The position numbers were made by a program, and so were the translations under genes. DNA of 63,954 bases, filler included, from Thraustochytrium aureum (lineage: Eukaryota), in NCBI GenBank assembly GCA_012862495.1. It is 7 parts of 6 records of this genome, joined end to end, with 100 filler letters (N's around TTAATTAATTAA, not from the genome) between each part and the next. Parts side by side here need not be neighbours in the genome. Positions count along the whole stretch, not along the records: positions 19,339 to 48,809 come from BLSG01000087.1; 6 more parts are not named here. The stretch is one strand, 5' to 3'. How positions within the stretch are numbered: position 1 is the first letter of the stretch; each line of letters begins with the position of its first letter. Of the stretch, positions 28,784 to 52,040 are shown one piece after another. The notes under the pieces were generated by a model. That model saw only the letters and a program-made list of their open reading frames with translations, was not told where the DNA came from and did no database searches.

Positions 28784-30193
28784 CTATGATGCGTTCTTTT
28801 TACGACGCACTGCCGCAACGACACCTTCCACGAGATCCGGTTCGGCATCAAAGAATATTTGGCCGTCCAGCGCGAGGAGCTCAGGTAGCAATTTTGCCTC
28901 ATCCGCGCTTAGCCCTGGTTTTCCAAGGCGTTCTTCAACCTCAGACGCAGACGCCAGAAAGTGGACGATGACGGTGCCTTCAGTCTTTGCCTCACGTTCC
29001 AAGGCTACGCGGGCCTCGTTAATGCAATACTTCGAGTCAAAAAAGTCGACCAGGTTGACGATAATCAGGATGACGTGCGCTTCTTCGAGTGCGCGCTTCA
29101 TCTCTTTCGTAGGGTTGCCGGACACCGGAAGGTTTTTGGCGTCCAAGAACGGCTCAAGGCCTTTATTTTGGAGTATTTCCCGGAAACTGTTTGCGTCGAA
29201 CTTGTTGGAGCCGCGATGCACGATGAACACGTCGTAGTGGCGATTAACAGGAGCAGGACGGGGTGAAACCATGCCGCTCGTGGAATCTCCGCCGTCGTCG
29301 CTTGCACCAGTGGACCCTAGCCCACGTCCGGCTCTCTTCTTCTTACGCACCACATAAACGATTGGGCAAACGAAAACAGCGAGGACAAAGACACTACCGA
29401 CGACAATTCCAGCAATGGCACCAGGACCAATCGACGCTGCGGAGGCGTCGCTCTCGTCCCCGCGCAGTCCTGACGTCTCCGTCGGCGTGCTTGATGGCGC
29501 CCCAGTCGCTTGGTCTGCCGTAGGAGCGGTGCTGGGCGTTTCGGACAAGGCGGCGGTTGGCGAAGTGCTTGGCGAGGATGTTGGGGAGACGCTGGGCCGA
29601 GCGCTCGGTGAATTGGTCGGTTGCCGCGTCGGGCCACTCGTTGGGGCTTTGGTCGGGCCACGAGTCGGGGACTTGGACGGCCCGCGAGTCGGGCCTCTCG
29701 TTGGGGCTTCGGACGGCTCGGGCGTGGGCCGCGGGACCTGAATCGGCCCGCAATCCGTGCAGTCCGTGCCAAGTTTGAGCGGCTGCTGGGTGGGGTATCC
29801 GCTGCTATCGTCACATAGCTGTCCTGCGCCTGGAGGATCTGGGCACCCCAGGGCTCCGCTGTCTTCAACTCGCGTTAAGCCGTGCTCCGAGTATGTATCA
29901 AAGCACAGCTCAACAGTGGCTTCCGTTGCGCTCGGGCAAGTCCCGCACGTCACGGGACACTGGCGCCTAACGCGCACCCCGAAGTTGGAGTTCTCACCGC
30001 AGTATTGCGCGAGCTCCAAGCAGCTGTTGCCACCGCCTTCCCAATCCGGGCAATCGCTGCCAATATGGACAGTCGGCCTGCCGTTGTCACGAATGTGGTC
30101 TTCCCAACCGGGGCACCACTGCCCGACAGCATTCTGCTGCGCGAGCATCAGCGCCATTATCAGCAACAGCAGTTTCGTTCTCATCATCTTCAT
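28784..30193 (-). CDS. Receptor 1: signal peptide - ShK-like + Cys-rich ectodomain (type A) - PST stalk - TM - canonical TIR
   Basis: MKMMRTKLLLLIMALMLAQQNAVG signal; CLELAQYC...RRQCPVTCGTC; GTDCTDCG; PT/PS repeats; TM AIAGIVVGSVFVLAVFVCPIVYVV followed by RKKKR; TIR YDVFIVHRG...PFLD...VILII...FFDSKYCINE. Confidence 0.85.
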   Translation of the reverse strand: MKMMRTKLLLLIMALMLAQQNAVGQWCPGWEDHIRDNGRPTVHIGSDCPDWEGGGNSCLELAQYCGENSNFGVRVRRQCPVTCGTCPSATEATVELCFDTYSEHGLTRVEDSGALGCPDPPGAGQLCDDSSGYPTQQPLKLGTDCTDCGPIQVPRPTPEPSEAPTRGPTRGPSKSPTRGPTKAPTSGPTRQPTNSPSARPSVSPTSSPSTSPTAALSETPSTAPTADQATGAPSSTPTETSGLRGDESDASAASIGPGAIAGIVVGSVFVLAVFVCPIVYVVRKKKRAGRGLGSTGASDDGGDSTSGMVSPRPAPVNRHYDVFIVHRGSNKFDANSFREILQNKGLEPFLDAKNLPVSGNPTKEMKRALEEAHVILIIVNLVDFFDSKYCINEARVALEREAKTEGTVIVHFLASASEVEERLGKPGLSADEAKLLPELLALDGQIFFDAEPDLVEGVVAAVRRKKNAS

Positions 30194-30729: not shown

Positions 30730-32890
30730 GTTTGAAACGCGCTTTGACGCCTCCTATCCCTGCTCCGACTCCCCCAAAACAAAAGACAGCGACGTCACCG
30801 GCAGCAACACTACCAAAGCCAAATGCTGAGGCACCTCCCACGCCGGCAGCGCCAAGGAGTGCTGGAGCGGCGAATCCAATCAAAGCACCAACAAGGATCC
30901 CTCCCGTCAAACGTGGGAACCTGCTCTGCCAGGCGCCTGGCGGCGTGATTGGGATTTTCCCTCGGCCAACGCCGTCGTCGCTATTGACCTTTGAAAGCCA
31001 CGTTTTGAAGGACTCGGTCTCGGCGAGAGCTTTGTGCTCGAGCGCCCACAGTTTCTCGAGCTCTTGCGGGAGGCTGGTGTCGACGGTGGAGGCCAAGCTC
31101 TTGGCTTGGACGCGCCAGGCACCTACCTCGCAGAGGACATGGAGCACCTTCCGTGGAAACTCGCGCTTGGCCGCATCCCCGCTGAAGAGCTTTCGAATTG
31201 TGTCCTTTATCCAACTCTTGAGCTCACTTTCTTGCGCCTTGCCACTCTCGGCTCTGACGTTGCTCAGCACCTCGTCAGCTTCGTCAAACCAAACCGGGAC
31301 CCCTGGGCGCTCAACGTTCGACCTCCACTCGGAGCCCTCCGCAGATACCCGCCAAGCTTTCACGCTTCTCAGGTCTTCAACTTTGTGCTCCTCCTGAGCG
31401 CGTTTCCATACGCACTCCAGAGACTTGCTCGGTGGGGTGAGCGCTGCGAGCGCAACGCTGGCGATGAGTTTGTTCAACATGCGCAACGCCGCGTCGCAGT
31501 TTGCGTCTGATGATTCAGCAGACGTAAAGGTGTTGTCCGGACCCCAATAGCCCCTCTTCGCGGCCAGGTCCTGGATTTCAGCGTCAAGGTCGCTGATGAC
31601 GCTCTCCCAAGCTCTAGCGACTTGGTTCGAGTACTTGCCGCCTTCTGATAGCTCCACGAGTTGGAAAAGCTCCTCCGACTCCGCGCGAAGTGCCTGGAGG
31701 CCCGCAAGCAGGGTGACCTCGCTTGGGCTTTCAACGCGAATGCTCCGCCAACGGTCGTCTGGCGTTTTTGGAAGGGAACCGTCGAGGAGGCCACGAAAGG
31801 TTGTCATTAGGACCGCAAACCGTGCCCGAGCCATACCAAAAACGAGCTCTTTCCAGAAGTCCTTGACACCTGCCAGCTCAGCAGTCTTTGCCGCAATGTC
31901 CTTGTGAGCCGCATTGGCTCTAGCTCGCTCAGCATTTCCGTCATCCCGGAAACCTAAAAATGACCATGGCCCAGGTACGCGCAGTCCCCACGTACCCTCA
32001 GACGGCTGTCTGTTGCCAGTGTAGTCCCTGAGGACGGTGAGCTGGTTGAGGAAGTGTGTCTGCTCGCCGCCCTCGAGGTCTGGGAGGAGAGAGTAGAACT
32101 TACGAATCAGCTCGCAGTTGGCGAGGTCGCAACCCCTGCATTGGCTGTTCAGGGCGTCCACTCCGCGAGTGAAGTAGAGCGACACCTTTCTCGATTCGAA
32201 GTGTTTGGAGAGGTACTCCTTGTTGTAGATTGTCTTTGCGTTGCTACTGACTTTCTCGCGCTCCCTCTGCTCCACTGCATCCATCTTGTTGATGAACACA
32301 GCGACAGACGCCCGCGTGCCAGAGCGGCGCACAAGCTCCGCCAATTCCTCGAACTTTGTTGAACCGACGTCGGTCGTCGGAATCACCATGGCGATCAACG
32401 TGGCCTTCTTCAGTTCTTCGCAAATGACGCCTTCTCGATGCTCGCGGCCATTCGCCTCGTCTGCGCCTGGAAGGTCCACAATCTCGACACCGCCAAGACG
32501 GAGGTCCAGGTAATCCTTCATTGGTTTCATGTTGGCTTCAATTACAAGCCGCGGGATCGTCGTCCTCCTGTTTTGATGTTCAATCCAGCTTCGTGGGCCG
32601 GCAGCAGGATCGACCTGCGTTCCTTGGGTTTCGCTTGGCCCTTGGCTTTCGATTGGCCAAACACGAAGCGTCGGCTCGCCTTCGACATGGCCCCTGAAAT
32701 GTCCAGCCTCCATACTTTCCACGTGCCGCACTAGTGTTACGGTGGCGGTTTCGATCATTGCGGCGCTTGGCAACAGGTACGCTCCGATAATCGCGTTGAG
32801 GATCGTACTCTTGCCGGCGTTCTGTGTGCCCAACGCAGCGATGCGGAGCACGGAGGCGTCCGCGTCGTTGTTGAAATCCAGTCCAACCAT
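30730..32890 (-). CDS. Dynamin-like GTPase of bacterial DLP/mitofusin type with C-terminal Gly-rich hydrophobic segment; 3' end in gap
   Basis: G1 IAALGTQNAGKSTILNAIIG, LLPS..ETAT (G2), IVDLPG (G3) and INKMD (G4), then a helical region and GGILVGALIGFAAPALLGAAGVGG. Confidence 0.8.
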
Positions 32891-33934
32891 CCTCGGTAGT
32901 GCCTGCGCGCCCCCGTGCTGAGACTCAGCAAAGCCTGGCCTGTACTAGTAGGTATCTGCTTCGCGATTTGCGTGCAGCAAGCCTCGCTCGCGATGCGGGA
33001 CTGCCGACCGCGCTGGGATGGCATCCTGGTTAAACTAGNNNNNNNNNNNNNNNNNNNNNNNNNNNNNNNNNNNNNNNNNNNNNNNNNNNNNNNNNNNNNN
33101 NNNNNNNNNNNNNNNNNNNNNNNNNNNNNNNNNNNNNNNNNNNNNNNNNNNNNNNNNNNNNNNNNNNNNNNNNNNNNNNNNNNNNNNNNNNNNNNNNNNN
33201 NNNNNNNNNNNNNNNNNNNNNNNNNNNNNNNNNNNNNNNNNNNNNNNNNNNNNNNNNNNNNNNNNNNNNNNNNNNNNNNNNNNNNNNNNNNNNNNNNNNN
33301 NNNNNNNNNNNNNNNNNNNNNNNNNNNNNNNNNNNNNNNNNNNNNNNNNNNNNNNNNNNNNNNNNNNNNNNNNNNNNNNNNNNNNNNNNNNNNNNNNNNN
33401 NNNNNNNNNNNNNNNNNNNNNNNNNNNNNNNNNNNNNNNNNNNNNNNNNNNNNNNNNNNNNNNNNNNNNNNNNNNNNNNNNNNNNNNNNNNNNNNNNNNN
33501 NNNNNNNNNNNNNNNNNNNNNNNNNNNNNNNNNNNNNNNNNNNNNNNNNNNNNNNNNNNNNNNNNNNNNNNNNNNNNNNNNNNNNNNNNNNNNNNNNNNN
33601 NNNNNNNNNNNNNNNNNNNNNNNNNNNNNNNNNNNNNNNNNNNNNNNNNNNNNNNNNNNNNNNNNNNNNNNNNNNNNNNNNNNNNNNNNNNNNNNNNNNN
33701 NNNNNNNNNNNNNNNNNNNNNNNNNNNNNNNNNNNNNNNNNNNNNNNNNNNNNNNNNNNNNNNNNNNNNNNNNNNNNNNNNNNNNNNNNNNNNNNNNNNN
33801 NNNNNNNNNNNNNNNNNNNNNNNNNNNNNNNNNNNNNNNNNNNNNNNNNNNNNNNNNNNNNNNNNNNNNNNNNNNNNNNNNNNNNNNNNNNNNNNNNNNN
33901 NNNNNNNNNNNNNNNNNNNNNNNNNNNNNNNNNN

Positions 33935-35450
33935 CCTCGTACGGCATTACATCGCCAACCCGAACGCGGTGATCCTTGTGGTGATCCCGATAACCGACGA
34001 CCTGCAGACGTCGGAGGCGATCCAGCTGGCGCGCGAGTACGACAGGCCGGGCGTGCGCACCCTTGGCGTCCTGACCAAGCCAGACCACGTTTTGGCAGAC
34101 TCGTCGCGCAAGGAGTTCATGGCGAGGGCACTAAAATCGGGCGGGGGCCCGGACACTCCACTCAAGCTCGGATACATCGCTGTTCGCACGCGCAAAGGAG
34201 ACGAGCACGGCCCGCTCTCGCAAGTCCTCGAGGCTGAGCGCACGCTTTTCAGCTCGGACCCTGTCTTCGGCCAGCTGGACAGGTCGCTATGGGGCATTGA
34301 GACGCTGCGATCGCGCGTACTCTCGATCCAATCCAGGTTTCTCCGCGCGTTTCAAAAGGGCTTTGCGTCCTCGGTCCAGGCTCGAAAGGGTGAGCTGGAG
34401 GCAGAGCTTGCTGAGCTAGGAGGTTTGGAGCCCGGGGAGGAGCACGACGTACTACTTGGGTTTTTCCGACGCCTGAACGCCGTCTTTGACAGGGTTACGA
34501 TCAGAAGGGAGAGTGGGAACATGCCGAACGCGGCGCTTCTTGGGATGCACTTCGACGAGGCTGCCTTGGAGTTTGGGCGGAACATCACCGAACGGATTTG
34601 CCCCACGCCAGGGTTTTTCAAGAACGACGAGGCGACGCTTGCAGACGTGCGGGCTCTGATCCAAGACCTTGGCTCCAGTGGCGAGTTGGACAGCCTCGGG
34701 GTGTTCAACAATGTCGTCCGGAGGCACATCGCGGAGCCCGCCAAGCAAGTCGTGGAAGAGTTTGTGAGGCAGGCGAACTTCTTTGTGCAACAAGCGCTAG
34801 GTGCGATTCTCGGAATGGACGACCTCCGCGCGCTGGCCCGCAAGTGCCCGAAGATCTGCTCCAACCTGCTCGAGTCAATCAGGGCCAAGGAAGCCGAGCT
34901 CTGCCAGAGCACGCTCGCGTTTGTGAACGACCTCATCGAGGCTCAAGCAGATTACGCGCGGTTTGGGAGAGACTTGCCCTTGGGTAGCGGCACTGAGATC
35001 GTCGGGCTCATCCAAGGCCTTGGGCTGGATCAGGAGACCCAACTCGTCAGCGCTGTCAGCGCTGTTTGCGGCCAGCCTGGAGCAGTCGTCTTTCGTGCGT
35101 TCATGAACCGCGTTGGGCGCGCTTCACCCGCGAGTTCCCCCATGGGAGACCGCGGGGCCGCGTGGATTTGCCACAAGCTTCAGTGCCGGGCAGAACGTGC
35201 GGTCGCCGCATTCGAAGAAATTATCCCTCGTATAGTCTGGCGCAAGCTCGTCAAAGGGTACGAGGCCGTCTTCGAAGGCCTCCAATCAGATCTCGCCAAA
35301 GACTCTGATCTGCGCAAGCTTTGGACCGAAGAAAGTGGCACTGTTGTCGAGGAACGCAGAGCTCTTGAGGATCGCATTAGTAGGCTGGGTCGTAGCTTGG
35401 AAAAGCTGGAGCAAGTCGAGTTGCGCAGCGCAATGCTCAGCTTGGTTTGA
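33935..35450 (+). CDS. Mx-like dynamin-family GTPase (N-terminal part lost in N gap)
   Basis: ILVVIP...TSEAIQLAREYD...RTLGVLTKPD (G4 with Mx-type TKPD), LKLGYIAVRTR, WGIETLRSR, helical middle domain and GED-like end (EERRALEDRISRL). No PH or proline-rich domain is visible. Confidence 0.8.
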
Positions 35451-35619: not shown

Positions 35620-36244
35620 CGGCAGTCTAGCTGCGCTACTAAGGCTGCTCGCTGAGAGGACCAGCCCCATGGGGACTGGAACGCTGACTGTGAGGCCACT
35701 CATGGGCGCCTCGATGCCAAATAAGAAATGAAAACTTACCCCGGCCTCAATTAGATCGCCAAGGTTTCTCGCCAAGAACGTCGCCGCCTCCCAACCTGTC
35801 ACATTCTTAGTCAGCCAGTTTGCCGACTCAGTCAACTCCAGCTCACGTAGTCCCTCGCTGGTGGCGCTGAAGGGGGCGAGAAACACAGCCAACGCTCTCG
35901 GCGGAGCGATCGCGCAGTTCTTCCATAGCATTGCGAAACCCGTGGTCCGTAAGCTCCCTTGCCGAAGACAAGAAGACGACAACGCGTTTTGGCCTTTTTG
36001 GAGCGCAACGACTCAAACGCCGAGCCAGCGACCTCAAGCTCGCGCAACCATGTGGTTTTGATGCCCCGCTTGTCAAGCCCTTTGCTGACTTTGTTAACCA
36101 GGCGGGCGTGCTGCTGCGTTGCAAGAAAGACACCCGGCAAACCTCATTGTGCGGGTCTCACAGGCACGTCTGCTCGGCGTTGCAGGTCGCCTCGCTCTGC
36201 AGCTGGGCGCTCGCGCAAAACGCCCTTGCCCCGGCCTCGTCCAT
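35620..36244 (-). pseudogene. Receptor remnant 2: start of type B ectodomain joined directly to a frameshifted VTGWEA TIR-like domain
   Basis: From ATG 36244 reads MDEAGARAFCASAQLQSEATCNAEQTCL*DP (TGA where paralogs have TGG). It continues across frames as FLATQQHARLV, VVVFLSSARELTDHGFRNAMEELR and ANWLTKNVTGWEA. Stalk and TM are absent. The 3' boundary is approximate. Confidence 0.7.
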
Positions 36245-37506
36245 TCTTGCCAGCAAGGCACTTTCCTGGAGGCACCGGCAGCAGGCCTGCCGCGACACCA
36301 AGCAAGACTCGGCTCCGCGTCCTCGCCAGGATCTGCTGGATGCTGGCTGGGGCAGTTCCGTTTGCTGCGCGAGGGTCGATACGTACAGGTTCGCGCCTCA
36401 CGTCCAGCCTCGCGGCTCTTGGAGATGGATCCCTGACCAATTCAATGATCTTGAAAGCTCAGGCTGGTCTTCGAGTGGCGCACGAGCTCGAGCCGCGCCT
36501 TGGCATCCGACTCGGAGTACTTTCGCACCAATGACCAATGCACGTTTGCTCGCACGGCTCTCGGCTCGGCCTTCGGAGTCGGGCGGGCGTGGAGCCGGCT
36601 GTCGCGACAACTCGGCGAGTCCTCCTTGCAGCCCAGCCAACCTGAGCGGGCCATGAGCGCAGGAAGGTCAGCAGCATTTGCGACGAGCGCAGGGTGTGCG
36701 GCCAATTCTTGCGCCGGCGTGAGCATGCGCGTCAAGTCTCCGGTCGAGGCCACGAGGAGGAGGCGGCCCAGTTCATTTCTCGCGTGGAGCCAGAATTCAG
36801 AGGGAAGAGCACCTCCTCGAGTACCCACCGACCGACCTACCGACCTTTGCGTTCAAGTTTGCGTTTGGATCGCTGCGAACGCGTTTCCGTGGAGCACGAG
36901 ATCTCATCGGAGCATCTCTTCAACGCGGAGTGCAACGCCACACGCAGCGCGTCGAGTGGCGCCTCTCGGACCATCATGAGAGCAGTTGCGTTTCGGTTTT
37001 AGCCACTGCTGCTCTGCTGGTCGCTTGCACAACCAAGACTGGTCGGACTGGTGCCACAGCGGTGCCGGCGCTGATCGAGGACGGGCATGGGCTGACCAGT
37101 TCAATGCGCCCCTAGTGAGAGCACGAGTCCCGAATCGAACGCTTCGTGCTGCGCTCGACGAAGGCCGAGAGCTGCTTTTTTTGCACCACGAAAAGGTTGC
37201 GCTCTTGTGCTCTGGCCGTCTTTGTCACCGTTCTCGCGTACGACGGCGTGCAAGGCAATGCCTACTCTACAGTGAGCGGGAATCGGTAACGGCCTTCGTA
37301 GCCGACACACTGATCTGCTTGCTTGCCTTCGAGCCGCTCAAAAGCGCTCTGTGGCGTTTGCTGAAACAATGGATAACCTGGACGAGTTCGCACAGGACGC
37401 CGAGGCGGGCTCCGAGGGCTGCACCGACCGCGGCTGCGGTCAAGCCCGGTACGGGGTCCTTCTCGTAAACGGGCCGTTTCGCCAAGCCAGCAATGATCCG
37501 ATCCAT

Positions 37507-38992
37507 TTACGCCTCATTCGCCCGCTTGTAGACATGATGGATGTGCGGGAACCTCCCAGTTGCAAAGTACGATTCCACGCCGGCCAGGACCAAGCGGTCC
37601 AGGTTGTATACCTTGAAGGGCTCTGCCTCCCAGCCCGTCACGTCCTGGAAAAGCCAGCTCGCCGCGTCGCTGTTCTCGGACTGTTTCAAGTCCTCCTTGA
37701 GCGCGTGCAGCGAGCTCAGAAAAACCGGCAAGACCTTCAACGGCACCACTTGGAAGCTGTCCGCATGGCGGTCGCGCAGCTCGCATAGCGCGGAGCGCAG
37801 CGCTGGGTCATCGACAAGCTCTTGCGAAGAGGAGAGCAACACCACCACAACGCATGCCTTATCGATGCACGACGGTCGGACGGCGCGGCTGGCTTGGTTT
37901 GCGGCGGGAGGCTCGATCACGCAATCGATGCCATTTGCAAGCAAGCCGTCCCGAACCGCTCGAGCCGGGCGAAAGTGATGTTTGTGGCACAGAATGACGA
38001 CCGGGCCGGTTGGCGCGATGGAGAGCTGTCCCAGTGGGCCGTCAAAGTCGCTCTTTGTTTGCCTTGCGCGACGACGACGCGAAAACCAGGCCACAAAACT
38101 TGCCACAAGCAAAAGCAAGCCCACTCCAGTCCCCACTCCAGCGTATACTCCCGCGTCGACTTGCTCCTGGGTGTCTTTTCCTGCAGCCGCAGGTTCGAGG
38201 GCGGATGGGCCCGAGGTTGCAGGCGCGCCGAGCGGTGCTGAAGTTGGACTAGTCTCACTGGCAGAGCTGTTGGTCGGCGCTGGGCTGGGCGGGTAAATGG
38301 GCTTGCGGCTGGGCGCTTGGCNNNNNNNNNNNNNNNNNNNNNNNNNNNNNNNNNNNNNNNNNNNNNNNNNNNNNNNNNNNNNNNNNNNNNNNNNNNNNNN
38401 NNNNNNNNNNNNNNNNNNNNNNNNNNNNNNNNNNNNNNNNNNNNNNNNNNNNNNNNNNNNNNNNNNNNNNNNNNNNNNNNNNNNNNNNNNNNNNNNNNNN
38501 NNNNNNNNNNNNNNNNNNNNNNNNNNNNNNNNNNNNNNNNNNNNNNNNNNNNNNNNNNNNNNNNNNNNNNNNNNNNNNNNNNNNNNNNNNNNNNNNNNNN
38601 NNNNNNNNNNNNNNNNNNNNNNNNNNNNNNNNNNNNNNNNNNNNNNNNNNNNNNNNNNNNNNNNNNNNNNNNNNNNNNNNNNNNNNNNNNNNNNNNNNNN
38701 NNNNNNNNNNNNNNNNNNNNNNNNNNNNNNNNNNNNNNNNNNNNNNNNNNNNNNNNNNNNNNNNNNNNNNNNNNNNNNNNNNNNNNNNNNNNNNNNNNNN
38801 NNNNNNNNNNNNNNNNNNNNNNNNNNNNNNNNNNNNNNNNNNNNNNNNNNNNNNNNNNNNNNNNNNNNNNNNNNNNNNNNNNNNNNNNNNNNNNNNNNNN
38901 NNNNNNNNNNNNNNNNNNNNNNNNNNNNNNNNNNNNNNNNNNNNNNNNNNNNNNNNNNNNNNNNNNNNNNNNNNNNNNNNNNNNNNNNNCAT
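37507..38992 (-). CDS. Receptor 3: (ectodomain in N gap) - PST stalk - TM - VTGWEA TIR-like domain
   Basis: Stalk at 38200-38320; TM VGLLLLVASFVAWF followed by SRRRR; PVVILCH...VVVVLLSS...ALCELR...VLPVFL...WLFQDVTGWEA. The putative ATG is at the gap edge (38992). Confidence 0.7.
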
Positions 38993-39811
38993 GCTGATGG
39001 CTTTGGACCAGAATGGCGACGGGTCGTCGGGCGCGCAAGCGCGATGCAGAGTTCTGTTGCGAGCTTAACGCAACTGAAGCGCTTTCGCGCAGCTCTGCGC
39101 GCGACAGGAAACCAACGAAAACAAAACGCAACAACTGGGGATTAGCAGGTGACCGTTCTTGGCTCTGACGGCCCCGCGAGGGACCGGCGCAACGGTCAGA
39201 GCTATGCTCACCTCCGCAGCGCGGCTTGTCGGCATGCTGCACAGCTCGGGGCTAGGCTGGCCCCTGACTTGGAGCCTGAGTGGGGATTTGCTCGAAGGCT
39301 TGCTTGGGTGGTCGTTGTGGTAGTTGAGAGAAGCGAGCAGTACCTATGTGCCCTTCGCATGACCATGGGACTGGGGAAAGGGGCTGGCCCTGCATGCCTT
39401 GACGGTGTCGGATTTGTCGCACTCCGGATTCAGTCAGGCAAAGCGGATCCGTGCGCCCTCTGGCTACTGCGCACGTGACCGCAACACGGCAAGCTGGCGT
39501 GGAAAGGCGCTGCTCGCTGTTCATGTGCGGGCGCTGAAGCGAAACAGTTCCGATACCTTGCATCCGCTTGCTGGGCGGTCCCACAGACAGGTCTTTTCTG
39601 CGTTGCATTCCATCAGTCCTGAATGCGCCACAGAACGCTGTCGCGCCATGCACGTCCCTCTTCGTTCGCTGCATTGCCACCTGGCGTCAACGCCACTGAC
39701 ATGCCCAACAGCGCTCTCTGTCTGCTAGTCACCTTCGCTGCACATCGCAGTATTGCGATTCGTGCGTTGGACTTCCTTGTATTCAATTGGAGAGGACTTT
39801 CTTTTCTTCCG

Positions 39812-41275
39812 TCATTTGCGTTTGTACACATCCTTCAAGGGCGGAATGCGCTCTGTGGATAAGAATTGTTCCACTCCAATGTAGATGAGCTGGTCTAGGC
39901 CATCCGTCACGTACTGCGCTGCCTCCCATCCCGTCACGTTATTCCAAAGCCAATCCACGGACTCGGCATGCGACGACAAAGTAGACCGGTAGTCGCTCTT
40001 CAAGCCTACAAGCGGCGTCATGTATACCACGAGTACAGTAACACACGAATCACGCTCTCCTTCCGCATGCAGATCTCGTAGCTCGCGGATGGCATCTTGT
40101 AGCTTTGGAGAACTGTCATACTCTCTCGCGGAGGGAAAAATGACGACCGCAAATTCGGCTTCCTGTAAGCGATGCGCAGTCATCTGGTCGTCTGAAGCAG
40201 TCTCGGGATCGACAGGACGCACGGAATCCAAAGGGGCCACAATCTCGCAGGTAAACCGCTTGCCTTTGTCCTGCAAGAAGCGGTCTTGGAGCGCCTTGGC
40301 CAGGGCGCTTTTTCCCCGATGGCAAATAACGACGACTCGCAGGGCATGCTTCGGGCTGGGCAGCCAGCATGCTGCACGAGCAAGNNNNNNNNNNNNNNNN
40401 NNNNNNNNNNNNNNNNNNNNNNNNNNNNNNNNNNNNNNNNNNNNNNNNNNNNNNNNNNNNNNNNNNNNNNNNNNNNNNNNNNNNNNNNNNNNNNNNNNNN
40501 NNNNNNNNNNNNNNNNNNNNNNNNNNNNNNNNNNNNNNNNNNNNNNNNNNNNNNNNNNNNNNNNNNNNNNNNNNNNNNNNNNNNNNNNNNNNNNNNNNNN
40601 NNNNNNNNNNNNNNNNNNNNNNNNNNNNNNNTTGTTGGACGCTGGAATTGGCGATCTTGTCGGCGGTGGGCTCGGAGTTCGGCTTGGGGCAGGACTCGGG
40701 CCTGCGCTAGGGGACTTGCTTGGGCCTGCGCTAGGGGACTTGCTTGGGCCTGGGCTAGGCGATTTGCTCGGGCCTGGGCTAGGTGACTTGCTCGGCCGGC
40801 CTGACGGAGTCTCCGTTGGGGACTTGGTCGGCGGCGTCGGTCGCGGTACGGAGAGTGCAGGGGATCCGCAGTCAGTGCAGTCTGTCCCCAGAGAGCAAGA
40901 GCTTGAACTCGAACCCAGCCTGCCATCATCGCAGAATGGCAAGACGGACGCACATCCAAACGCACCGCCATCCTCGACACGAAAGCAACTATCAAAGCAC
41001 AGGTCAGCAGTAGGGTTTGTCGAGCTCGGGCATGTGCCACACGTGACAGGGCACTGCCGCCGAACGCGTTCGCCCCTGTTGGTTTGCTCACCGCAGTACC
41101 CAGCCAGCCCTGCACACGACACGCGAAAGGCCACAGCGCACGGCACGGCTGGGTCTACGAACGGATTAGGGCTATCCCCAACGTGACCCTCCCATCCGGG
41201 GCACCACTGCGCGGCCGCCGCTAAGCAGGCATGCGCGGCGATCACCGCGGCCAGGCCGGCCTTCCGCTGCCACAT
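39812..41275 (-). CDS. Receptor 4: signal - ShK-like type A ectodomain - stalk - (TM in gap) - VTGWEA TIR-like domain
   Basis: MWQRKAGLAAVIAAHACLAAAA|QWCPGWE; RRQCPVTCGTC; GTDCTDCG; PSKSPS repeats; RVVVICHRG...AVVIFPS...AIRELR...VLVVY...WLWNNVTGWEA. Confidence 0.8.
   Translation of the reverse strand: MWQRKAGLAAVIAAHACLAAAAQWCPGWEGHVGDSPNPFVDPAVPCAVAFRVSCAGLAGYCGEQTNRGERVRRQCPVTCGTCPSSTNPTADLCFDSCFRVEDGGAFGCASVLPFCDDGRLGSSSSSCSLGTDCTDCGSPALSVPRPTPPTKSPTETPSGRPSKSPSPGPSKSPSPGPSKSPSAGPSKSPSAGPSPAPSRTPSPPPTRSPIPASNXXXXXXXXXXXXXXXXXXXXXXXXXXXXXXXXXXXXXXXXXXXXXXXXXXXXXXXXXXXXXXXXXXXXXXXXXXXXXXXXXXXLARAACWLPSPKHALRVVVICHRGKSALAKALQDRFLQDKGKRFTCEIVAPLDSVRPVDPETASDDQMTAHRLQEAEFAVVIFPSAREYDSSPKLQDAIRELRDLHAEGERDSCVTVLVVYMTPLVGLKSDYRSTLSSHAESVDWLWNNVTGWEAAQYVTDGLDQLIYIGVEQFLSTERIPPLKDVYKRK
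40690..40795 (-). repeat. Coding 24-bp tandem repeat (PSKSPS[P/A]G x4) in receptor stalk
   Basis: Repeated gggcctg(c/g)gctagg(g/c/t)ga(c/t)ttgct units. Confidence 0.8.
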
Positions 41276-41924
41276 CCCGATAGTGCTCTGCGTTGCATCA
41301 ACATACAGCGAGCTGGCAAGTGGCGAAGAGTATTGACCGAGCGCGTTGCGCTCTCATGGCCGCACCGCTCTGGATGCCGGGCAGGTCCCGGCAGAGGCGC
41401 AGCAGCAAAACAGCTGCCGAGTTAGCCAGCGGCACGCACGCCAGTATGCGTCGAGGCGGCAAGGCGCCTTGCTCTTCTTTTTTCCCGTTTCTCGCTCTTG
41501 ACCGTGGAGTGCACGGCTCGGGGTTTTGTTTCGTTTCGGGCTTGCCAAGTGCACGATACTCAGCCCTCGCATCGAATCCGAGCTCAAGAGTCGTCGCCTT
41601 GGTGAATTGATGCCCGACTGGCGCGAAACACGGACGGCGCGCTATCGATGGCGGCCGGTTCGGTCGAGGTGTGACCGAGGTTGACCCTGGCTTGAGAGAG
41701 TCCATCCAGTGCCACCACTGACTTCATCCATCATCCCTTCATACTACGCTCTTGGCAGAGGTGACCGACATTGTCAACGTGGTTGATGCACTCCTCGATC
41801 TCTCCGGCAGGCCGAGCGAGCACAGGCGGCTCCAGCAGCTCCAGGACGCTTGAGCGCGCTCGTGTTGCGCAGACCCGAGACGGATTCGGTACTCGCGGAC
41901 CAGCCGCAGCGCGCCGGCAGGTAG

Positions 41925-43463
41925 ATGGCGCTGCGACGGGGCAAGCGGGGGGTGGTGGCAGCTGCGGCGGTGGCCACGCTGCGCTCTGGCTTGGCAGCCG
42001 CGCTGTGGTGCCCCGGATGGGAAGGCTATATTGAAGACGCGCCGTTCGCTACGACAATTGTCATCGATAGGCCTTGTCCAGCATGGCATTACGAATGGCA
42101 GGGGGAACTCGTGACTGCTGCAACGTGCTCAGAGCTCGTTAGTTACTGCAGCGAGCAGACCCCCCTCGGGGAGCGCGTTCGGCGTCAGTGCCCCGTTTCG
42201 TGTGGGTCCTGCCCGAGTGCGACGAGCTCGGTCGCCGACCTTTGCTTTGACACTTGCACAACTCGCGTTGAGGACGACGGCGCAGTGGGCTGCTCCGATG
42301 TCGCGCCGGTAGGGCTATGCGACGATGGTAGGGCGGGCTCGATTTCCACGGCCTGCCCTCGAGGGACCGACTGCTCCGACTGTGGGGTTGCTCTCTCCGT
42401 ACCGCGGCCGACGCCGCCGACCAGCTTTCCCACAGCGCATCCCTCAACCAAAGCACCGACGAAAAGCCCGTCACGTCGGCCGACCAAGTCGCCCTCGAGC
42501 GGCCCGTCACGTCACCCTTCCAAGGCCCCGACAGCAGGCCCGACGCGTCAGCCGAGCAGGTCGCCGAGCAACTCGCCTAGTGCTCACCCGAGCGTTTCAA
42601 CAGGCGGAACTTCCAGCGGAGCTCCAACTCGGGCGCCGAGCGCCGCACCGAGCGCAGCCCCGAGCGCTGCCCCGAGCGCTGCCCCGAGCGCCGCGCTCGC
42701 GTCGGGACAAGCAAGCAGGGATCCAACATCGGCGCCGACGCTTGGCCCGACGGCTTTGCGAATCAGCGAAGACGACCCCTCGGAAAGTCTCGGCGCTGGT
42801 GCGATTGTTGGGATCCTCCTTGGGCTTGCTTTGCTCGCTGCCATCTTTGCTTTTGTGCGGCGGAAGAGATATCCTTCAATTATCGCGGGCGAGAAATCGC
42901 AGCAGACTTCCTATGATGTGTTCATCGTGCACCGCGGTGATAACAAGTTCGACGCCAATATAGTCCGAGAAAAGCTGGAAATGCTCGAACGCCTCAGGCC
43001 ATTCTTGGACGCCAAGAGCCTGAAAGTCGGTGGCGACCCCACAGCGGAAATGCAACGCACCCTTAGCGAAGCACCGGTCATTTTGATCCTGATCAGCCTG
43101 ATCAGCTTTTTCGACTCCAAGTATTGCGTCCAGGAAGCCCGGACAGCCCTGGAACGTGAAGCAGAGGTCAAAGGCACAGTCATCGTTTACTTCTTGGGAA
43201 GTCAGGAAGAAGTCGAGGAGCACCTCAGAAAACCAGACCTCAGCAAGGACGAGCGAGAGTTGCTTCCCAAGCTCTTTGCACTCGATTCACAGAGGCTCTT
43301 CGAGGGTGGCGACGATTCCTATAGCTCTCTTTTGAAGCTCGTCGCTGATGCGGTGAAGCGCAATAAGAAGCAAAGGGCTGTCCCGAGCGAAATGCCCTTG
43401 GCCGCGACGGGCGCCGCGAGCGAACAAGGTCAATCTAGCCCGGTAGCGAGCTCTACAACCTGA
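41925..43463 (+). CDS. Receptor 5: signal - ShK-like type A ectodomain - stalk - TM - canonical TIR (complete, uninterrupted 512-aa ORF)
   Basis: LWCPGWE; RRQCPVSCGSC; GTDCSDCG; PSAA repeats; TM AIVGILLGLALLAAIFAFV followed by RRKR; TIR YDVFIVHRG...PFLD...FFDSKYCVQE. Confidence 0.9.
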   Translation: MALRRGKRGVVAAAAVATLRSGLAAALWCPGWEGYIEDAPFATTIVIDRPCPAWHYEWQGELVTAATCSELVSYCSEQTPLGERVRRQCPVSCGSCPSATSSVADLCFDTCTTRVEDDGAVGCSDVAPVGLCDDGRAGSISTACPRGTDCSDCGVALSVPRPTPPTSFPTAHPSTKAPTKSPSRRPTKSPSSGPSRHPSKAPTAGPTRQPSRSPSNSPSAHPSVSTGGTSSGAPTRAPSAAPSAAPSAAPSAAPSAALASGQASRDPTSAPTLGPTALRISEDDPSESLGAGAIVGILLGLALLAAIFAFVRRKRYPSIIAGEKSQQTSYDVFIVHRGDNKFDANIVREKLEMLERLRPFLDAKSLKVGGDPTAEMQRTLSEAPVILILISLISFFDSKYCVQEARTALEREAEVKGTVIVYFLGSQEEVEEHLRKPDLSKDERELLPKLFALDSQRLFEGGDDSYSSLLKLVADAVKRNKKQRAVPSEMPLAATGAASEQGQSSPVASSTT

Positions 43464-44961
43464 CGCAACTCGATGAAGACTGTTTTCTAGAATGCTGTGC
43501 GCGACCGCCGGGAGACCATGGAACGCGACGAGGCGCAGAGGCAAGAGCGTCAATAAGTCCGCGGCGTGACCAGACTTTTTAAACAGGACCCACGGCGGTT
43601 AAGAAGTGCTCTTGACCATCGGGCTCCTCCCATTCAAAATGCGAGAGCGGGAACCTGGTCAGTGGATAGGCGNNNNNNNNNNNNNNNNNNNNNNNNNNNN
43701 NNNNNNNNNNNNNNNNNNNNNNNNNNNNNNNNNNNNNNNNNNNNNNNNNNNNNNNNNNNNNNNNNNNNNNNNNNNNNNNNNNNNNNNNNNNNNNNNNNNN
43801 NNNNNNNNNNNNNNNNNNNNNNNNNNNNNNNNNNNNNNNNNNNNNNNNNNNNNNNNNNNNNNNTTTCCCTGCTCTGCTCGGCTTGCGAATGCTGTACCCG
43901 AAAGTGCCGGGCGGCGATTCCGCCCTCGAGTCTGCCGGCTGTTGTTCACGAAACTCGGCTGCTTTTGGCATTTTGAACGTCGGCGTACGTGCCGACCTGA
44001 TGCGATGCAAGCGAAACTCGTGGAGCGTCCCTGCTCGCTTGCGTCAAGAGGCTTCACCTAAAGCATCACGCTGACCACCCCTATTTCTCTCCATGCTTGC
44101 TTTTTAAATTGTGCTGTCCGGACAGCGTGCAAGTGCAGGCGAACGTATTCCCTAGCGACGGCTTTGGCGGCTCCCATCCCCACGTAGAGTTCGCATCTGA
44201 GTAGAGTACAACTGGCTGGTCCAACCAGCAGGGTCGTTGAACCAATCGCATGATCATGTTCGCTGGTGATTCTCGCCAGCGCCCCCTTCATTCTTGGCCA
44301 ACACCGCGACGCGAACAACTTGCGACCACGCAGGCACATGCAAGCTCGACTTCGGCGACACACGCCACGGGCAGGGCGGCCGCGACGACAGCATCGAGCT
44401 CGATGCTGCCAGAGGATGGGCATGTGGAGATGAGTGAGATCACAGGATCATCTGGGCATATTTTCCGACAGATCGACACTGTACCGACGCGCACGTCGAG
44501 AAAAAGCGCGCTCGAGCCATTCCTTGCTGTTCACAAGACGAGGTGGGCACCAACTAAACCGAGGTGTGTCGGTCGTTCGTCCGGGTGCATGGCGCGTGCC
44601 AGACGCGTTTGCTGTAGCCAGCAAAGGTAGGTACAACGTCGCCCGCAAGGCTCAACAGGGCCTCATGGATCTGCGCTTCTCGTGGCCCCGCGCGCGCTCA
44701 AGTGTCGCGCTCAAGTCTCATCGCTGGATGACAGAATCGCATCGCATTTTTCAACTGGATCGAGACGCATGCTGGCCGGCCGACGAACGGACTGCGTGCG
44801 GGTGCACGCAGTGCCCACCGGGTGTGGTAGAGCCGAATCTCGCAGAACTCCGTGGGGCAAGGCTCGCCGAGCTTGCGTAGCAGAGTCGAGACTCGCAGCA
44901 CTCCGCGGGCGCAAGGTTCGACCACAGGCGCCAAGCCGGCGTTGCAGACGGTAGACGGGGG

Positions 44962-46353
44962 ATGGATAAGGCCGAGGCCGAAGCGTTCTGCGGCGAGTTT
45001 CTGGGGCAGACCAGCTGCAATGCGGAGCAGACGTGCTTGTGGAATCCCATGGCCGGGAGCTGCATGGTCGCCTTGACGTTCAACTTTTGCCAAGCGATGA
45101 ACGGGGACCCGGTCGACTGCGGCTTTTGGTCGCAATGCGAGTTCAAGACGGTGAACGGCATTCCAAACACTTGCACCGCCGCGCAGCGGCCGGCGGGATG
45201 GAATTGCGAGCAACCTGATTACAACCAAAATCGTTGCCACTGCGGATGCGGGATCTGGGACCCGGATTGCGACAAGTCTCCCCCGGACGACGCGAACGAT
45301 GCGAAAGCCACGTGCGGGCCGTGGGCTTCCCAAATTCCAGAGATCGGCAAGTACTGCGACTACTCGTCAAACACCTGCGCGACTCTGAGCCCAACCGCGT
45401 TACCGACCAGAACGCCAACGAGCCACCCGAAGCAGGGCACCGAGCAAAGCCCCGAGCAAAGCTCCAACACGAACACCGACCGAGGCGCCGAGCACTCGGC
45501 CCAGCGCAACCCCGAGCGCAACCCCGAGCGCATCGCCAAGTGCTATGGTAGCAACCCAAGCACCGAGCCACGCGCCGAGCTTGTCCCCACATCGGCAGCC
45601 GACGGGCAGTGTAACGGGCGGCAGCCCAACGACCCGGGCGCCGTCCGGTTTGCTTCCGACCAGTTCGCCAACGCCCTTCCTTGCTGCTGCAGCCCTCGCT
45701 GACGAAGGCGAGAGTGTCGCAGTCATTGTCGGGGCGACTGCGGCCGGTATTCTTTGCTTGCTTGGCGTTCTCGTCTTTTGGCTGTGCCGCAGGAGATCGT
45801 CAGGGCCAGCTTCCGGCCCTCGGGGGCCGGTCGTCATCCTTTGCCACAGGCAGCACGGCAACATAGCTCGAAATATCCTTGCGGGTCTGTGCGACAAGGG
45901 CTTCGAGTGCGCGATTGAGCCTCCGCTGAAGCCCGAGGATGCCGTCGCCGGCCAGCCTTCCAGCCTGGAGAAAGCCCAGCTCGTTGTCGTTCTCCTCGCA
46001 TCCGTGAAAGAGCTAGACGATGATCCCGCGCTCGCCAACGCCCTTCGCGCGTTGCGCGGTCGTCACGCGGAGGCCAGAGGCCAGGGTCTCGTTGTCTTTC
46101 CAGTGCATTTGAGCTCGCTCGGCGCGATCAAGACCGGCTCTGGAGAGTCTGCATGTTTGGACGTTCTGAACTGGCTTACCCACGAGGTGACCGGGTGGGA
46201 GGCAGAGCCGTACAAGGCAGGCAGCCTGGACCTCCTCGTCATCCATGGCGTGGAATCTTACTTTGCAACAAGCACGATCCCCCAATCAACGCGGCCTTCC
46301 ACCACGTGGAGCCCCCACGCCTCGAGAGCAATCCGCCGAGCGCAAGGCAATGA
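44962..46353 (+). CDS. Receptor 6: type B Cys-rich ectodomain - stalk - TM - VTGWEA TIR-like domain; frameshifts near 45430 and 46283
   Basis: CNAEQTCLWNP, RPAGWNC, CHCGCGIWDPDC; stalk; TM VAVIVGATAAGILCLLGVLVFWL followed by CRRR; PVVILCH...WLTHEVTGWEA. The start and signal peptide are uncertain. Confidence 0.75.
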
Positions 46354-46783
46354 TCATGATGATGGATGATGCGGCTGATGATGAACGGGAAAAGGACGAT
46401 GATTCATTGATGAACGAAAAAGCACTCGGCAAGTCCGCAAACAAGGTGTGTACCCCTCTGCTCACAAATAGGCCCAGGCCTGCCTTGCACACTCTGCCTA
46501 CCAGCCAGCCAGCCAGCCCCACGAAAAACGTGGTGAGAGTAAGCGAACAAGTGCGAGTGGGTACAGGGCGTCAAGTTGAACCGGATGGCGCACCGGCAGG
46601 AGACCGGCAGAGCTGCTGCCCGATCACAAGCTGCGGCCGAGCAGCGAGCAGCTTGATCACTCAACAGCAGACCTGAAACGAAATCAGGAGCGGAAGGCCG
46701 CGAGAGCCCGACGGCGACAGGGCGCTTCATGCACCAACCACGACGCACGAAGCTTTACGAGAACGGACTAGCGTTGCTTGGGG

Positions 46784-48138
46784 ATGGGCTTCGGGTACGA
46801 CGACGCCGTGCTGCTCTGCTCGCCGCTCCAAAGCCAAAGCACTTGTAATGCGGAGGATAGCTGCCTCTGGGATCCGGGCGATGGCACATGTAGAGCGTCC
46901 GACTGGGTGAGGTTTTGCTCCTACGCGAACACGGTGGCCGACCCTGAAACGGAATGCAAGAAAAGCTTTCACTGCCAGTACACGCGAGTCGGTGGCCAAG
47001 ATGGCGTCTGTACCACAGCGCCGCGGCCTGCTGGCTGGGTCTGCGAGGCGCCGGCTTTCTTCAATGGTGGATGCGACTGCGGGTGCGGGGTGCGTGACCC
47101 TGACTGTTTTACTGGCGGGAGTCCATGTATTCATGCGGTCCGTGGGACCGCAATGTCGACGTCGAACTCGTTTGCGACTACGAGACGAACTCATGCGTGT
47201 CGAAAGCTCCAACCCCCGGTCCGTCTAGATCTCCGACCCGCGGACCGTCGTCAAGGCCGACCTCGGTGCCCAGCGCCTCGCCAACAACTACGCCGACGAG
47301 CGCGCCTAGCCACACTCCGAGCAAGACGCCAAGTGAGGCCCCCGCTGGGTCGACGCTGAGCCCGTCTAGTTTGTCGACGATCATGCCCAGCTCGGCGCCG
47401 AGCTTGGAACGCACTTTGGCGCCGAGCTTGGAACCCACTTTGGCGCCGAGTTTGGCTCCTTCTGCTCAGCCCAAGGTCTTTACTGGAGCCCAGGCAGGGG
47501 GGGAGCCAGCGCAGCTGAGTAGCGTTGGACTGGCGGCTTTGGGAGGGCTCGTCGCTTTGTTCGTCGTGGGGGCGCTTGTTGTACTCGGATGGTGGCGCAA
47601 GCGCAAAGGCCCCGTTCCCGTGGCGCACCCCTTGTATTTGATAGAGCCAACAGAGCCAGTCGCGATCCTGGCCACGGCCCAGCATGCGAGACTGGCTCGC
47701 GCAATACAGGGCTCCTTGAGTCAGCGGAGCGTGACGAGTCAGATTGAGCCTTCGAGAGAGAGAGGCGGCGTATCCGCCATCGAGCGCGCACAGCTTGCGC
47801 TGGTACTGTTTTCGTCTGCGCGCGAGCTAGAGGATGAGGGTTTCCGCGCGATGATGCAAGAGCTGCGAGCCCGGGCCGACGATGAGACCTTGCGCATTTT
47901 CCCAGTCTATCTCACTGCGTTCGAGCCGCTCGAAACTGCCGTTCGCGCTTCGGAGCACGCGGAAGCAGCGTCCTGGTTGTTTCGCGGCGTTACTGGGTGG
48001 GAGGCAGATCTCTTCGCGACGCCCAGCCTCAGCGACATGGTGGCCAAAGCCGTGGAGACGTTTTTTGCGTGCGGAGTGATTCCCGACATCAAAGATACCT
48101 ACGTGCTTTTCCACCGGGTTGAAGAAGATCCAGTCTAG
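46784..48138 (+). CDS. Receptor 7: type B Cys-rich ectodomain - stalk - TM - VTGWEA TIR-like domain; frameshift near 47120
   Basis: CNAEDSCLWDP, RPAGWVC, CDCGCGVRDPDC; APSLEPTL repeats; TM LAALGGLVALFVVGALVVLGWW followed by RKRK; PVAILAT...MMQELR...IFPVYL...WLFRGVTGWEA. Confidence 0.78.
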
Positions 48139-48684
48139 TAGAGCTCCAGGGCACCCCCGAGTACTCCGTACCTCGCAGTACAGATCACAGGCTCCCACTC
48201 TCGACGATGTAGCTGTTGACGATCATGATGGGGCCCATGGTCATCATCATCACCGGTGCCTCGTTCTCGCACTGGCAGGCAAACGATTTTGACACTTGAC
48301 TTTCGTTCGCTGTTCGCCGATTCCGCGACCGCCTTGAATGACGACGGCCGGCAGCCGTCGGTCGTGCCAATCGACGGACGCCGTCCGACTCGAACCATCG
48401 TGCCGAAGCGCACCTGAACTCGATTTCGGATCCGCGAGGCTTGGTTCAAGAGTCATGGACAAAGGCACACTCCTGCGCAACTCCAGCGTGCTTTTTTTAN
48501 CCCGCGCCGATGCAAGTACTTGCACCACCATCATGGTACTAGTAGAGTACTCGCATGTTGGCAGCCCGGGCAGAGCACGAACAGCAGCACGAACAGCAGC
48601 ACGAACAGCAGCTCGCGTTTACGAGCCGCGGTTGTGGCGGCACTGAACGGAACATCGCTTTGGGACTTGGCGCTGTTGGCAAGA

Positions 48685-48809
48685 ATGGACGAGGCCGGGG
48701 CAACGGGCGTTTTGCGCGAGCGCCCAGCTGCAGAGCGAGGCCACCTGCAACGCCGAGCAAACGTGCCTCTGGGACCCCGCATGATGAGGTTTGCCGGCTG
48801 TCGGCATGG
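48685..48809 (+). CDS. Receptor 8: 5' fragment of a type B ectodomain gene, cut off by the scaffold end
   Basis: Near-identical (inverted) to 36130-36255. Reads MDEAGAT-AFCASAQLQSEATCNAEQTCLWDP-HDEVCR after removing two homopolymer insertions. Confidence 0.6.
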
Positions 48810-51625: not shown

Positions 51626-52040
51626 GTTGCGCTCGCCCCGTTCGCGCACTGCTGCTGCTCCATCATGGCGCTGCCAACCATTCGGCAGCCGCTCCAGCGA
51701 AACTCGCGCGCACTCTCGCGCACCCCAGTTTAATTAATCGGAACTCGCGCCAATTTGTGCGCTCGTTTCGCTGTATAGTAGGCACAGACCACCGGCGAAT
51801 ACCGGGTAAATAAATAACGTTATTTATATTTAAATTGTGCCGATTAGTAGGGGTAAGGTTTTAGGGGGTAGCTGGGGTAATGATAGGACAAGGTGCATGT
51901 GGTGATGGTGGTGGCCGATGTCGCCCATGGCAGATGCGCAAGGCACTCTGACGCGGGACAGGGCCTCGGCGCCGTCCACTTGCGTGGACGTGATTCTGGC
52001 CTCGGGGCGTTTCGGGTGCCTCGCGTGGCGGCCCAGAGTA

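What the first reader, a model, noticed from the sequence alone, without database searches (positions are those of the whole stretch)
33935..35450. Mx-like GTPase embedded among TIR receptors
Seen: TKPD G4 motif, LGYIAVRTR, divergent middle domain and GED, and no PH/PRD. Known: TKPD is characteristic of Mx proteins and Mx-like DRPs, whereas dynamin/Drp1/Vps1 usually have TKLD, and Mx-like genes occur beyond animals. Inference: an antiviral effector physically linked to its putative sensors.
Basis: partly seen in the sequence, partly recalled or inferred. Interest (0 to 1): 0.7.

Follow-up and report, generated by a model that had tools for sequence, protein, structure and literature searches.

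The report
Mx-like dynamin in TIR receptor cluster
A single-celled eukaryote carries a dynamin-family gene of the Mx-like (plant DRP4-type) branch, head to head with a bacterial-type dynamin, inside a 20-kb array of duplicated and partly broken TIR-fold receptor genes; the array is likely an immune-gene cluster, but an antiviral role and any sensor-to-effector link are untested.

Summary
Window 33936-35450 (+) encodes 504 residues of a dynamin-superfamily protein with TKPD, stalk and GED and no PH/PRD; G1-G3 lie in an N gap and were not seen. Trees place it beside Hondaea GBG30247 (99/97) in the DRP4-type group (100/98), the third Mx-like lineage of Langley 2025. Grouping with Dyn/Drp proteins is rejected (p-AU 0.0002), but so is grouping with animal Mx, fungal MxF and other TKPD proteins (p-AU 0.0002). 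The 20-kb block holds only these two GTPases, six TIR or TIR-fold receptor genes (two frameshifted in this haplotype) and two remnants. Allelic pN/pS is 0.43 (12 N, 9 S); a diverged paralog exists. No TIR gene was found beside 11 distant Mx-like loci, and no close relative's locus could be fetched. Verdict: an ordinary member of a known Mx-like lineage in an unusual, probably immune, neighbourhood; antiviral action and a link to the receptors remain inference.

The parts
33936..35450 (+). DRP4-type Mx-like dynamin-superfamily gene, C-terminal 504 codons (end of GTPase domain with TKPD, BSE, stalk, GED)
   Evidence: trees
33039..33934 (.). N run that should hold the start and G1-G3 of the Mx-like gene and the region between the two divergent GTPase genes
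   Evidence: X1 contig of 2269 bases has 1578 on the window, so 691 run upstream
30731..32890 (-). Bacterial-type dynamin-like (BDLP-like) GTPase, at least 720 aa, G1 GTQNAGKST, G3 DLPG, G4 NKMD, glycine-rich hydrophobic C-terminal segments; head to head with the Mx-like gene; 3' end in an N run
   Evidence: Dynamin_N E 1.2e-15; BDLP 2j68 E 5e-4; bacterial dynamin clusters 0.92-0.94; LeoA E 5e-8, partial match
28784..30190 (-). T1: single-pass receptor; signal-like N-terminus, Cys-rich ShK-like ectodomain, P/T/S stalk, TM, TIR with CxxE glutamate
   Evidence: TIR_2 E 6e-10; ShK E 0.026, below cut-off
35713..36255 (-). T7: broken remnant of a divergent-TIR receptor (stop, frameshift, no stalk or TM), convergent on the Mx-like gene's 3' end
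37507..38319 (-). T2: stalk, TM and divergent TIR-fold domain; N-terminus in an N run
39812..41272 (-). T3: shuffled receptor, T1/T4-type ectodomain joined to a T2/T5/T6-type divergent TIR; internal N run bridged in frame by contigs of X2-X4 (256 letters for 247 N)
41925..43463 (+). T4: complete single-pass receptor, ShK-like ectodomain, PT stalk, TM, TIR with CxxE glutamate; TIR about 60% identical to T1
   Evidence: (TIR_2 E 1.7e-8)
44881..46369 (+). T5: Cys-rich ectodomain and divergent TIR in two frames in this haplotype; X2-X4 contigs differ by an indel there, X1 agrees with the window
46772..48138 (+). T6: Cys-rich ectodomain and divergent TIR in two frames in this haplotype; X2-X4 contigs differ by an indel there; domain modelled as TIR fold
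48674..48802 (+). 129-base remnant, 92% identical inverted copy of part of T7

Best explanation
The gene encodes a DRP4-type Mx-like dynamin that sits with a bacterial-type dynamin in a fast-turning array of TIR-fold receptor genes, and it likely serves as a defence effector that shares a locus, and probably regulation, with those receptors rather than binding them. Shown: dynamin/Mx fold, tree position, neighbours, duplications, domain shuffling, polymorphic frameshifts, a paralog. Inferred from known families: the protein would polymerise through its stalk and use GTP hydrolysis to constrict or trap a parasite structure or membrane, most plausibly of a giant virus; T1 and T4 would sense a surface ligand through the Cys-rich ectodomain, cluster their TIR domains and cleave NAD+ into a signal; the two divergently oriented GTPases would share an upstream region. 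The step from TIR signal to GTPase induction is pure inference.
For: Sister to P0190 and Hondaea GBG30247 at 99/97, inside the DRP4-type group at 100/98 (same placement); Dyn/Drp grouping rejected, p-AU 0.000175. Langley's Dataset S17 puts GBG30247 with red algal, dinoflagellate and plant DRP4. In 28.8-48.8 kb the long ORFs with a family are only TIR-type receptors and the two GTPases; housekeeping genes lie outside. Turnover: two remnants, one shuffled receptor, two receptors frameshifted here but with other indel alleles in X2-X4; a collinear paralog 88% identical over 147 bases in X2; 13 of 21 allelic coding differences fall in 157 bases; BDLP-like helical region 13 N: 4 S. Proteins from 6 of 6 viral-collection contigs tested nest in the same DRP4-type group, which fits a host-virus conflict. 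TIR genes, one with an ectodomain, respond to virus in G. huxleyi (PMC12489294, passages); protist TIRs can be NADases (10.64898/2026.04.20.719644, passages).
Against: No functional or expression data. G1-G3 unseen. Allelic pN/pS 0.43 is below 1 (p 0.07 against neutrality) with no housekeeping control. 0 of 61 ORFs scanned around 11 distant Mx-like loci carry a Pfam TIR at E 1e-4, and profiles of the window's TIRs hit 0 of 3047 ORFs from 92 loci; these loci are distant, mostly short, and some may be viral. Monophyly of the DRP4 lineage with animal and fungal Mx has only 58.4/93 support in the published IQ-TREE file as I read it, and I saw no test of antiviral activity for this lineage in protists. 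The loop that reads RGxELPxF in animal Mx is shortened and changed in this protein and its two sisters. Without the genome, the chance of such a neighbourhood cannot be computed.
Confidence: 0.5

Rival explanations
1. Co-location without shared function: the block is a duplication-prone compartment where fast-evolving families collect, and the Mx-like protein does lineage-specific membrane remodelling unrelated to the receptors.
For: No TIR beside 11 other Mx-like loci; remnants and inverted copies show an unstable region; pN/pS below 1; Foldseek ranks Drp1 and dynamin level with Mx.
Against: Two unrelated dynamin classes, each with defence precedent, sit head to head in the middle of the array; a paralog and patchy allelic divergence fit conflict better than housekeeping.
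Confidence: 0.3
2. Direct sensor-effector module: the TIR domains or their NAD-derived signal switch on the two GTPases after translation, as in a bacterial defence island.
For: Tight physical linkage; intact CxxE glutamate in T1 and T4; weak PADLOC matches to ThsB-type TIR and LeoA.
Against: No extra ligand-binding domain on the Mx-like protein; PADLOC matches are partial and weak; linkage not seen in distant relatives; receptors turn over while the GTPase stays intact.
Confidence: 0.1
3. A catalytically dead or decaying copy, with the working gene being the paralog elsewhere.
For: G1-G3 unseen; neighbours include pseudogenes; a paralog exists; long terminal branch, 1.25.
Against: 504 codons without a stop in the window, and no indel inside the ORF in the four runs laid (table 4); synonymous excess among alleles and paralog differences; confident model.
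Confidence: 0.07
4. Housekeeping Drp1/Vps1-type fission dynamin.
For: Best PDB sequence hit is the red algal Dnm1 structure 6fgz; no PH/PRD, as in Drp1 and Vps1.
Against: AU test rejects grouping with 15 Dyn/Drp proteins; with 20 Dyn/Drp rows including Vps1-like ones it stays in the DRP4-type group; best whole-length identity to any protein found is about 29%.
Confidence: 0.03

Closest known systems
Hondaea fermentalgiana GBG30247.1 and the third Mx-like lineage (plant DRP4, red algae, alveolates) of Langley et al. 2025, PMC11789081
   Same: Nearest named relative; same clade; GTPase-stalk-GED layout without PH; shared shortened stalk loop.
   Different: Only about 25-27% identical overall; G4 is TKPD here and TKVD in Hondaea; the Hondaea model is fused to an unrelated membrane protein; its neighbourhood could not be read.
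Animal MxA/MxB and fungal MxF
   Same: Same fold, TKPD, no PH/PRD.
   Different: Separate clade (p-AU 0.0002); RGxELPxF loop absent; no interferon system (recalled); antiviral activity untested.
Bacterial dynamin-like proteins (BDLP 2j68, LeoA of the PADLOC Leo models) for the gene at 30731-32890
   Same: GTPase motifs, long helical body, C-terminal hydrophobic segments.
   Different: In a eukaryote, paired with an Mx-like gene; matches cover the GTPase domain only; no close prokaryotic copy found.
Membrane TIR proteins of protists (G. huxleyi, PMC12489294) and Toll-like receptors
   Same: Ectodomain, one TM helix, cytosolic TIR with the conserved glutamate in T1 and T4.
   Different: ShK-like Cys-rich ectodomain on a PT stalk, no LRR found; four copies carry a divergent TIR that Pfam misses; clustered with dynamins.

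Membership tests
Dynamin superfamily, classical GTPase-stalk-GED type | G4 T/N-K-x-D motif and end of GTPase domain | tested here: met
   TKPD at 47-50; Pfam Dynamin_N 121-167
Dynamin superfamily, classical GTPase-stalk-GED type | Intact G1-G3 motifs | not testable with these tools
   in the N run; contigs extend into it but only 30 letters are shown
Dynamin superfamily, classical GTPase-stalk-GED type | BSE, four-helix stalk and GED | tested here: met
   Dynamin_M E 2e-10; model and Foldseek; Pfam GED weak
Mx-like lineage 3 (DRP4-type, Langley 2025) | Groups with GBG30247, red algal and chlorophyte DRP4-type proteins | tested here: met
   99/97 and 100/98 on 442 columns after G3; the published definition uses the whole GTPase domain, and no land-plant DRP4, PADS or MADS row was in my set
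Mx-like lineage 3 (DRP4-type, Langley 2025) | No PH domain or PRD | tested here: met
Mx-like lineage 3 (DRP4-type, Langley 2025) | Copy-number turnover | tested here: inconclusive
   one paralog contig in 1 of 4 runs laid; no genome
Animal Mx / fungal MxF / TKPD stramenopile group | One clade with these proteins | tested here: not met
   p-AU 0.000214
Animal Mx / fungal MxF / TKPD stramenopile group | RGxELPxF stalk loop (its role in oligomer assembly is recalled) | tested here: not met
   present in P0032, P0295, P0007; shortened and changed in P0001, P0190, P0191
Animal Mx / fungal MxF / TKPD stramenopile group | Infection-induced, restricts a virus | not testable with these tools
   no RNA holder on record
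Drp1/Dnm1/Vps1/dynamin clade | One clade with Dyn/Drp proteins | tested here: not met
   p-AU 0.000175. Reference rows are mainly ciliate or unnamed proteins labelled by tree position and motif
Drp1/Dnm1/Vps1/dynamin clade | Strong purifying selection | tested here: inconclusive
   pN/pS 0.43 on 21 differences, no control gene
TIR-domain membrane receptors | TIR domain | tested here: met
   T1, T4 by Pfam; T6 by fold, RPS4 TIR TM 0.65, E 1e-5 and atlas 0.90; T2, T3, T5 by 32-39% identity to T6. Profile comparison of the two TIR types was not significant (probability 2.8%)
TIR-domain membrane receptors | Single transmembrane helix before the TIR | tested here: met
   hydropathy peaks in T1, T2, T4, T5, T6; T3's falls in an N run
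TIR NADases | Catalytic glutamate in the CxxE position (pattern recalled) | tested here: inconclusive
   present in T1 and T4; the divergent four lack the pattern, with a Glu one turn later in T2, T3, T6 and Ala in T5
Toll-like receptors | LRR ectodomain | tested here: not met
   no LRR by Pfam in the sequenced parts
Bacterial dynamin-like proteins (30731-32890) | Dynamin GTPase motifs plus helical body and C-terminal membrane segment | tested here: met
   no tree or model was made, so origin is open

The most novel reading that the evidence does not exclude
A eukaryotic defence island: an array of surface TIR receptors signals, through NAD-derived messengers, to two antiviral dynamins of separate origin (an Mx-like and a bacterial-type one) driven from one divergent promoter, in an arms race with giant viruses that have captured the same DRP4-type dynamin.
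Probability: 0.18. Interest if true: 0.8.

Novelty: new variant of a known kind. Interest (0 to 1): 0.45.

Why it matters
Whether Mx-like proteins outside animals are antiviral is open (PMC11789081, Discussion). A protist locus where one sits with a bacterial-type dynamin among turning-over TIR receptors gives guilt-by-association evidence and a compact test system: one infection series and a few knockouts. If such clusters are general, defence-island mining could be carried from bacteria to protists. The gene alone is an ordinary new member of a published lineage.

Tried and rejected
No genome was held, so copy number and chance of clustering are untested. Scans with P0001 alone found no relative in viral or metagenome contigs; the BDLP-like protein found none in prokaryote genomes. 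The homolog search with T4 returned 36 proteins, 32 with the PT repeat and none with a TIR family, so it is uninformative. Expression: no RNA holder listed; X2-X4 are only guessed to be RNA, come from one study and are contigs; their lack of cover at about 36.5-39.1 kb and the marsh run X6 (one 158-base piece) are not used as evidence. The paralog pN/pS printed used mismatched site ranges and is discarded; only its counts (9 synonymous, 6 non-synonymous of 15 listed differences) are kept. The in-frame read-through from the BDLP-like ORF across N into T1 was rejected as a fusion because T1 has its own hydrophobic N-terminus. The atlas gave no answer for P0001 and the wide structural search none for the TIR model. 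I recalled that P0190's accession series comes from a dinoflagellate culture assembly that may contain a labyrinthulomycete; the listing did not confirm it. The host taxon was not tested with housekeeping genes: labyrinthulomycete is a guess from the nearest named relative, while the atlas's nearest TIR clusters are mostly haptophyte. No complex was predicted. Earlier scan findings: three look-ups, nothing. Rows dropped before the trees: hits under 480 aa, most of the 118 ciliate-type hits, and 3 without a found G4.

Full report
Observation. The frame 33936-35450 (+) is open for 504 codons and begins at the edge of an 896-base N run. TKPD lies at residues 47-50 and LGYIAVRTR at 78-86. Pfam finds the tail of Dynamin_N and Dynamin_M above cut-off and a weak GED, E 0.021. 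An AlphaFold model from a 12-row alignment (pLDDT 78.6, pTM 0.53) matches Drp1, dynamin and MxA/MxB along its whole length with similar scores, so the fold does not tell these families apart. There is no PH domain or PRD. One contig of run X1 runs 691 bases upstream into the gap, enough for the 153-185 residues that the nearest relatives have there, but G1-G3 were not seen. The gene is intronless over the sequenced part, with GC3 0.72 against 0.64-0.86 for seven flanking genes; the window is eukaryotic (myosin, WD40, RRM, HAT-repeat, kinase and P-type ATPase genes).

What family. The HMMER scan of 1.84 billion representatives gave 154 hits at E 1e-10 or better; the best are P0190 (29% over 2-490) and P0191, named CAK8997294.1 and Hondaea fermentalgiana GBG30247.1. 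A FastTree of 185 rows, IQ-TREE on 59 rows x 442 columns and a quick tree of 57 rows with more Dyn/Drp and Vps1-like rows all join the protein to these two (99/97) inside a group with Gracilaria KAI0562045, Chromera and Bryopsis GMH36208 (100/98). All three sisters are long branches (1.25-2.0), and one search warned of that; the mixture model and a shared shortened stalk loop argue the join is real. AU tests reject holding it with 15 Dyn/Drp rows (p 0.000175) and with 21 animal Mx, fungal MxF and stramenopile TKPD rows (p 0.000214). In Langley et al. 2025 (PMC11789081; I read main-text parts 1-4 of 8, the SI legends, parts 2-3 of 5 of Dataset S17 and search hits in Datasets S7-S8), GBG30247 and KAI0562045 fall with plant DRP4 (92.3/98 and 94.7/97), their third Mx-like lineage. 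As I read that Newick string, the node joining this lineage to the other Mx lineages has 58.4/93. So 'Mx-like' is correct in the published sense and rests on moderate support. My trees hold no land-plant DRP4, PADS, MADS or OPA1 rows and cannot test that node.

TKPD. It marks 67 of 69 word-search hits, but only 3 of the 49 rows of the group that holds this protein, where SKCD, TKID, TKVD and TKCD prevail. It is therefore not the reason for the Mx-like placement. The word does not occur in the main text of Langley et al.; six papers hold it with dynamin and Mx terms (listing only).

Neighbourhood. Around the pair lie T1 and T4, with Pfam TIR_2, one TM helix, a PT stalk, a weakly ShK-like ectodomain and a CxxE glutamate, and T2, T3, T5, T6, whose cytosolic domains are 32-39% identical to T6 and missed by Pfam. 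The T6 domain models at pLDDT 85.6 and its top hits are plant TIR domains (RPS4, TM 0.65, E 1e-5); the atlas agrees at 0.90; the direct profile comparison with T1/T4 was not significant. T3 joins a T1/T4-type ectodomain to a divergent TIR, bridged in frame by contigs of X2-X4. T5 and T6 are split over two frames in the window and X1 but carry other indel alleles in X2-X4. A broken copy starts about 260 bases after the Mx-like stop and a 129-base inverted piece of it lies at 48674-48802. No other family was found between 28.8 and 48.8 kb among the long ORFs scanned.

Selection and copies. Against the X3 allele (21 coding differences listed of 25 in the contig) the count is 12 non-synonymous and 9 synonymous, pN/pS 0.43, p 0.07; 13 of the 21 lie in 157 bases at residues 123-175. 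X2 holds both a near-identical and a diverged allele of that tract and a 2345-base collinear paralog, 88% identical over 147 bases and too diverged to lay elsewhere except in two short stretches. The BDLP-like gene shows 13 N: 4 S in its helical part (17 of 20 differences listed) and 2 N: 4 S in the GTPase domain. This is neither strong purifying selection nor proof of positive selection; there is no control gene.

Is the linkage conserved? Not shown. No locus of a close relative could be fetched. Among 80 loci from an alignment scan, I scanned 61 neighbouring ORFs of 11 Mx-like loci (6 DRP4-type, 5 others, judged by motif) and found no TIR; window-derived TIR profiles hit none of 3047 ORFs from all 92 loci. 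These are distant organisms with short flanks, so the test is weak, but it gives no support to an ancient module.

Mechanism. Shown: fold, lineage, neighbours, turnover. Inferred from known families: stalk-mediated polymer and GTP-driven constriction on a parasite structure; ligand-driven TIR clustering and NAD+ cleavage by T1 and T4; shared regulation of the divergent GTPases. TIR genes are induced in virus-challenged and resistant G. huxleyi, one with an ectodomain (PMC12489294, passages; 'dynamin' does not occur there), and protist TIRs can make cADPR (10.64898/2026.04.20.719644, passages; its supplements were not seen). A preprint on protist immunity to giant viruses does not mention dynamin or Mx (10.64898/2026.10.11.758280, passages). 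I put a defence role with co-regulation at 0.5, chance co-location at 0.3, a direct module at 0.1, a dead copy at 0.07 and a housekeeping dynamin at 0.03.

Novelty. The gene is a new member of a published lineage. The arrangement was not found in the listings of five searches, which cover open-access text only. I rate the whole a new variant of a known kind, interest 0.45.

Noticed in passing
L001-L012 (viral contigs), dynamin ORF near 4900-6850 in most: Twelve viral-collection contigs, six named GVMAG, encode 590-650 aa dynamins; the six put in a tree form one clade (97) nested in the DRP4-type Mx-like group (98), and all six share its PG(I/V)VV-G-Q signature before G1. Langley 2025 names four viral lineages, none Mx-like. 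No MADS or PADS row was in my tree, and 25 neighbouring ORFs of four loci showed no hallmark viral gene.
   Followed up: partly
window 30731-32890 (-): Eukaryotic gene for a bacterial-type dynamin with no close copy in 185,579 prokaryote genomes by exact-pattern scan; origin and function open; diverged allele in the helical region.
   Followed up: partly
window 37507-48138: A four-member divergent TIR-fold family with an invariant W-L-x-x-x-V-T-G-W-E-A motif, missed by Pfam, lacking the CxxE pattern.
   Followed up: partly
P0191 (Hondaea GBG30247): The 1592-aa record looks like an Mx-like gene fused to a Cys-rich multi-pass membrane protein; either a gene-model merge or a real receptor fusion, and in either case an adjacent receptor-like gene.
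   Followed up: no
window 12656-16225 (+): Phosphate-binding PBP-like ectodomain followed by a 7tm_3 domain in the next frame: a class C GPCR-like receptor, split by an intron or frameshift.
   Followed up: no
window 24955-26277 (+): 441-aa ORF of no examined family between N runs; not scanned in the right frame.
   Followed up: no
window 27290-28540 (+) and 51906-52601 (+): Questin-oxidase-like and limonene-epoxide-hydrolase/SnoaL-like genes flank the cluster.
   Followed up: no
L060, L065, L067, L088: DRP4-type dynamins on gene-dense 57-60% GC contigs; L060, L065 and L088 have PD-(D/E)XK nuclease, PIF1 helicase or DNA methylase neighbours; possibly further viral copies.
   Followed up: no
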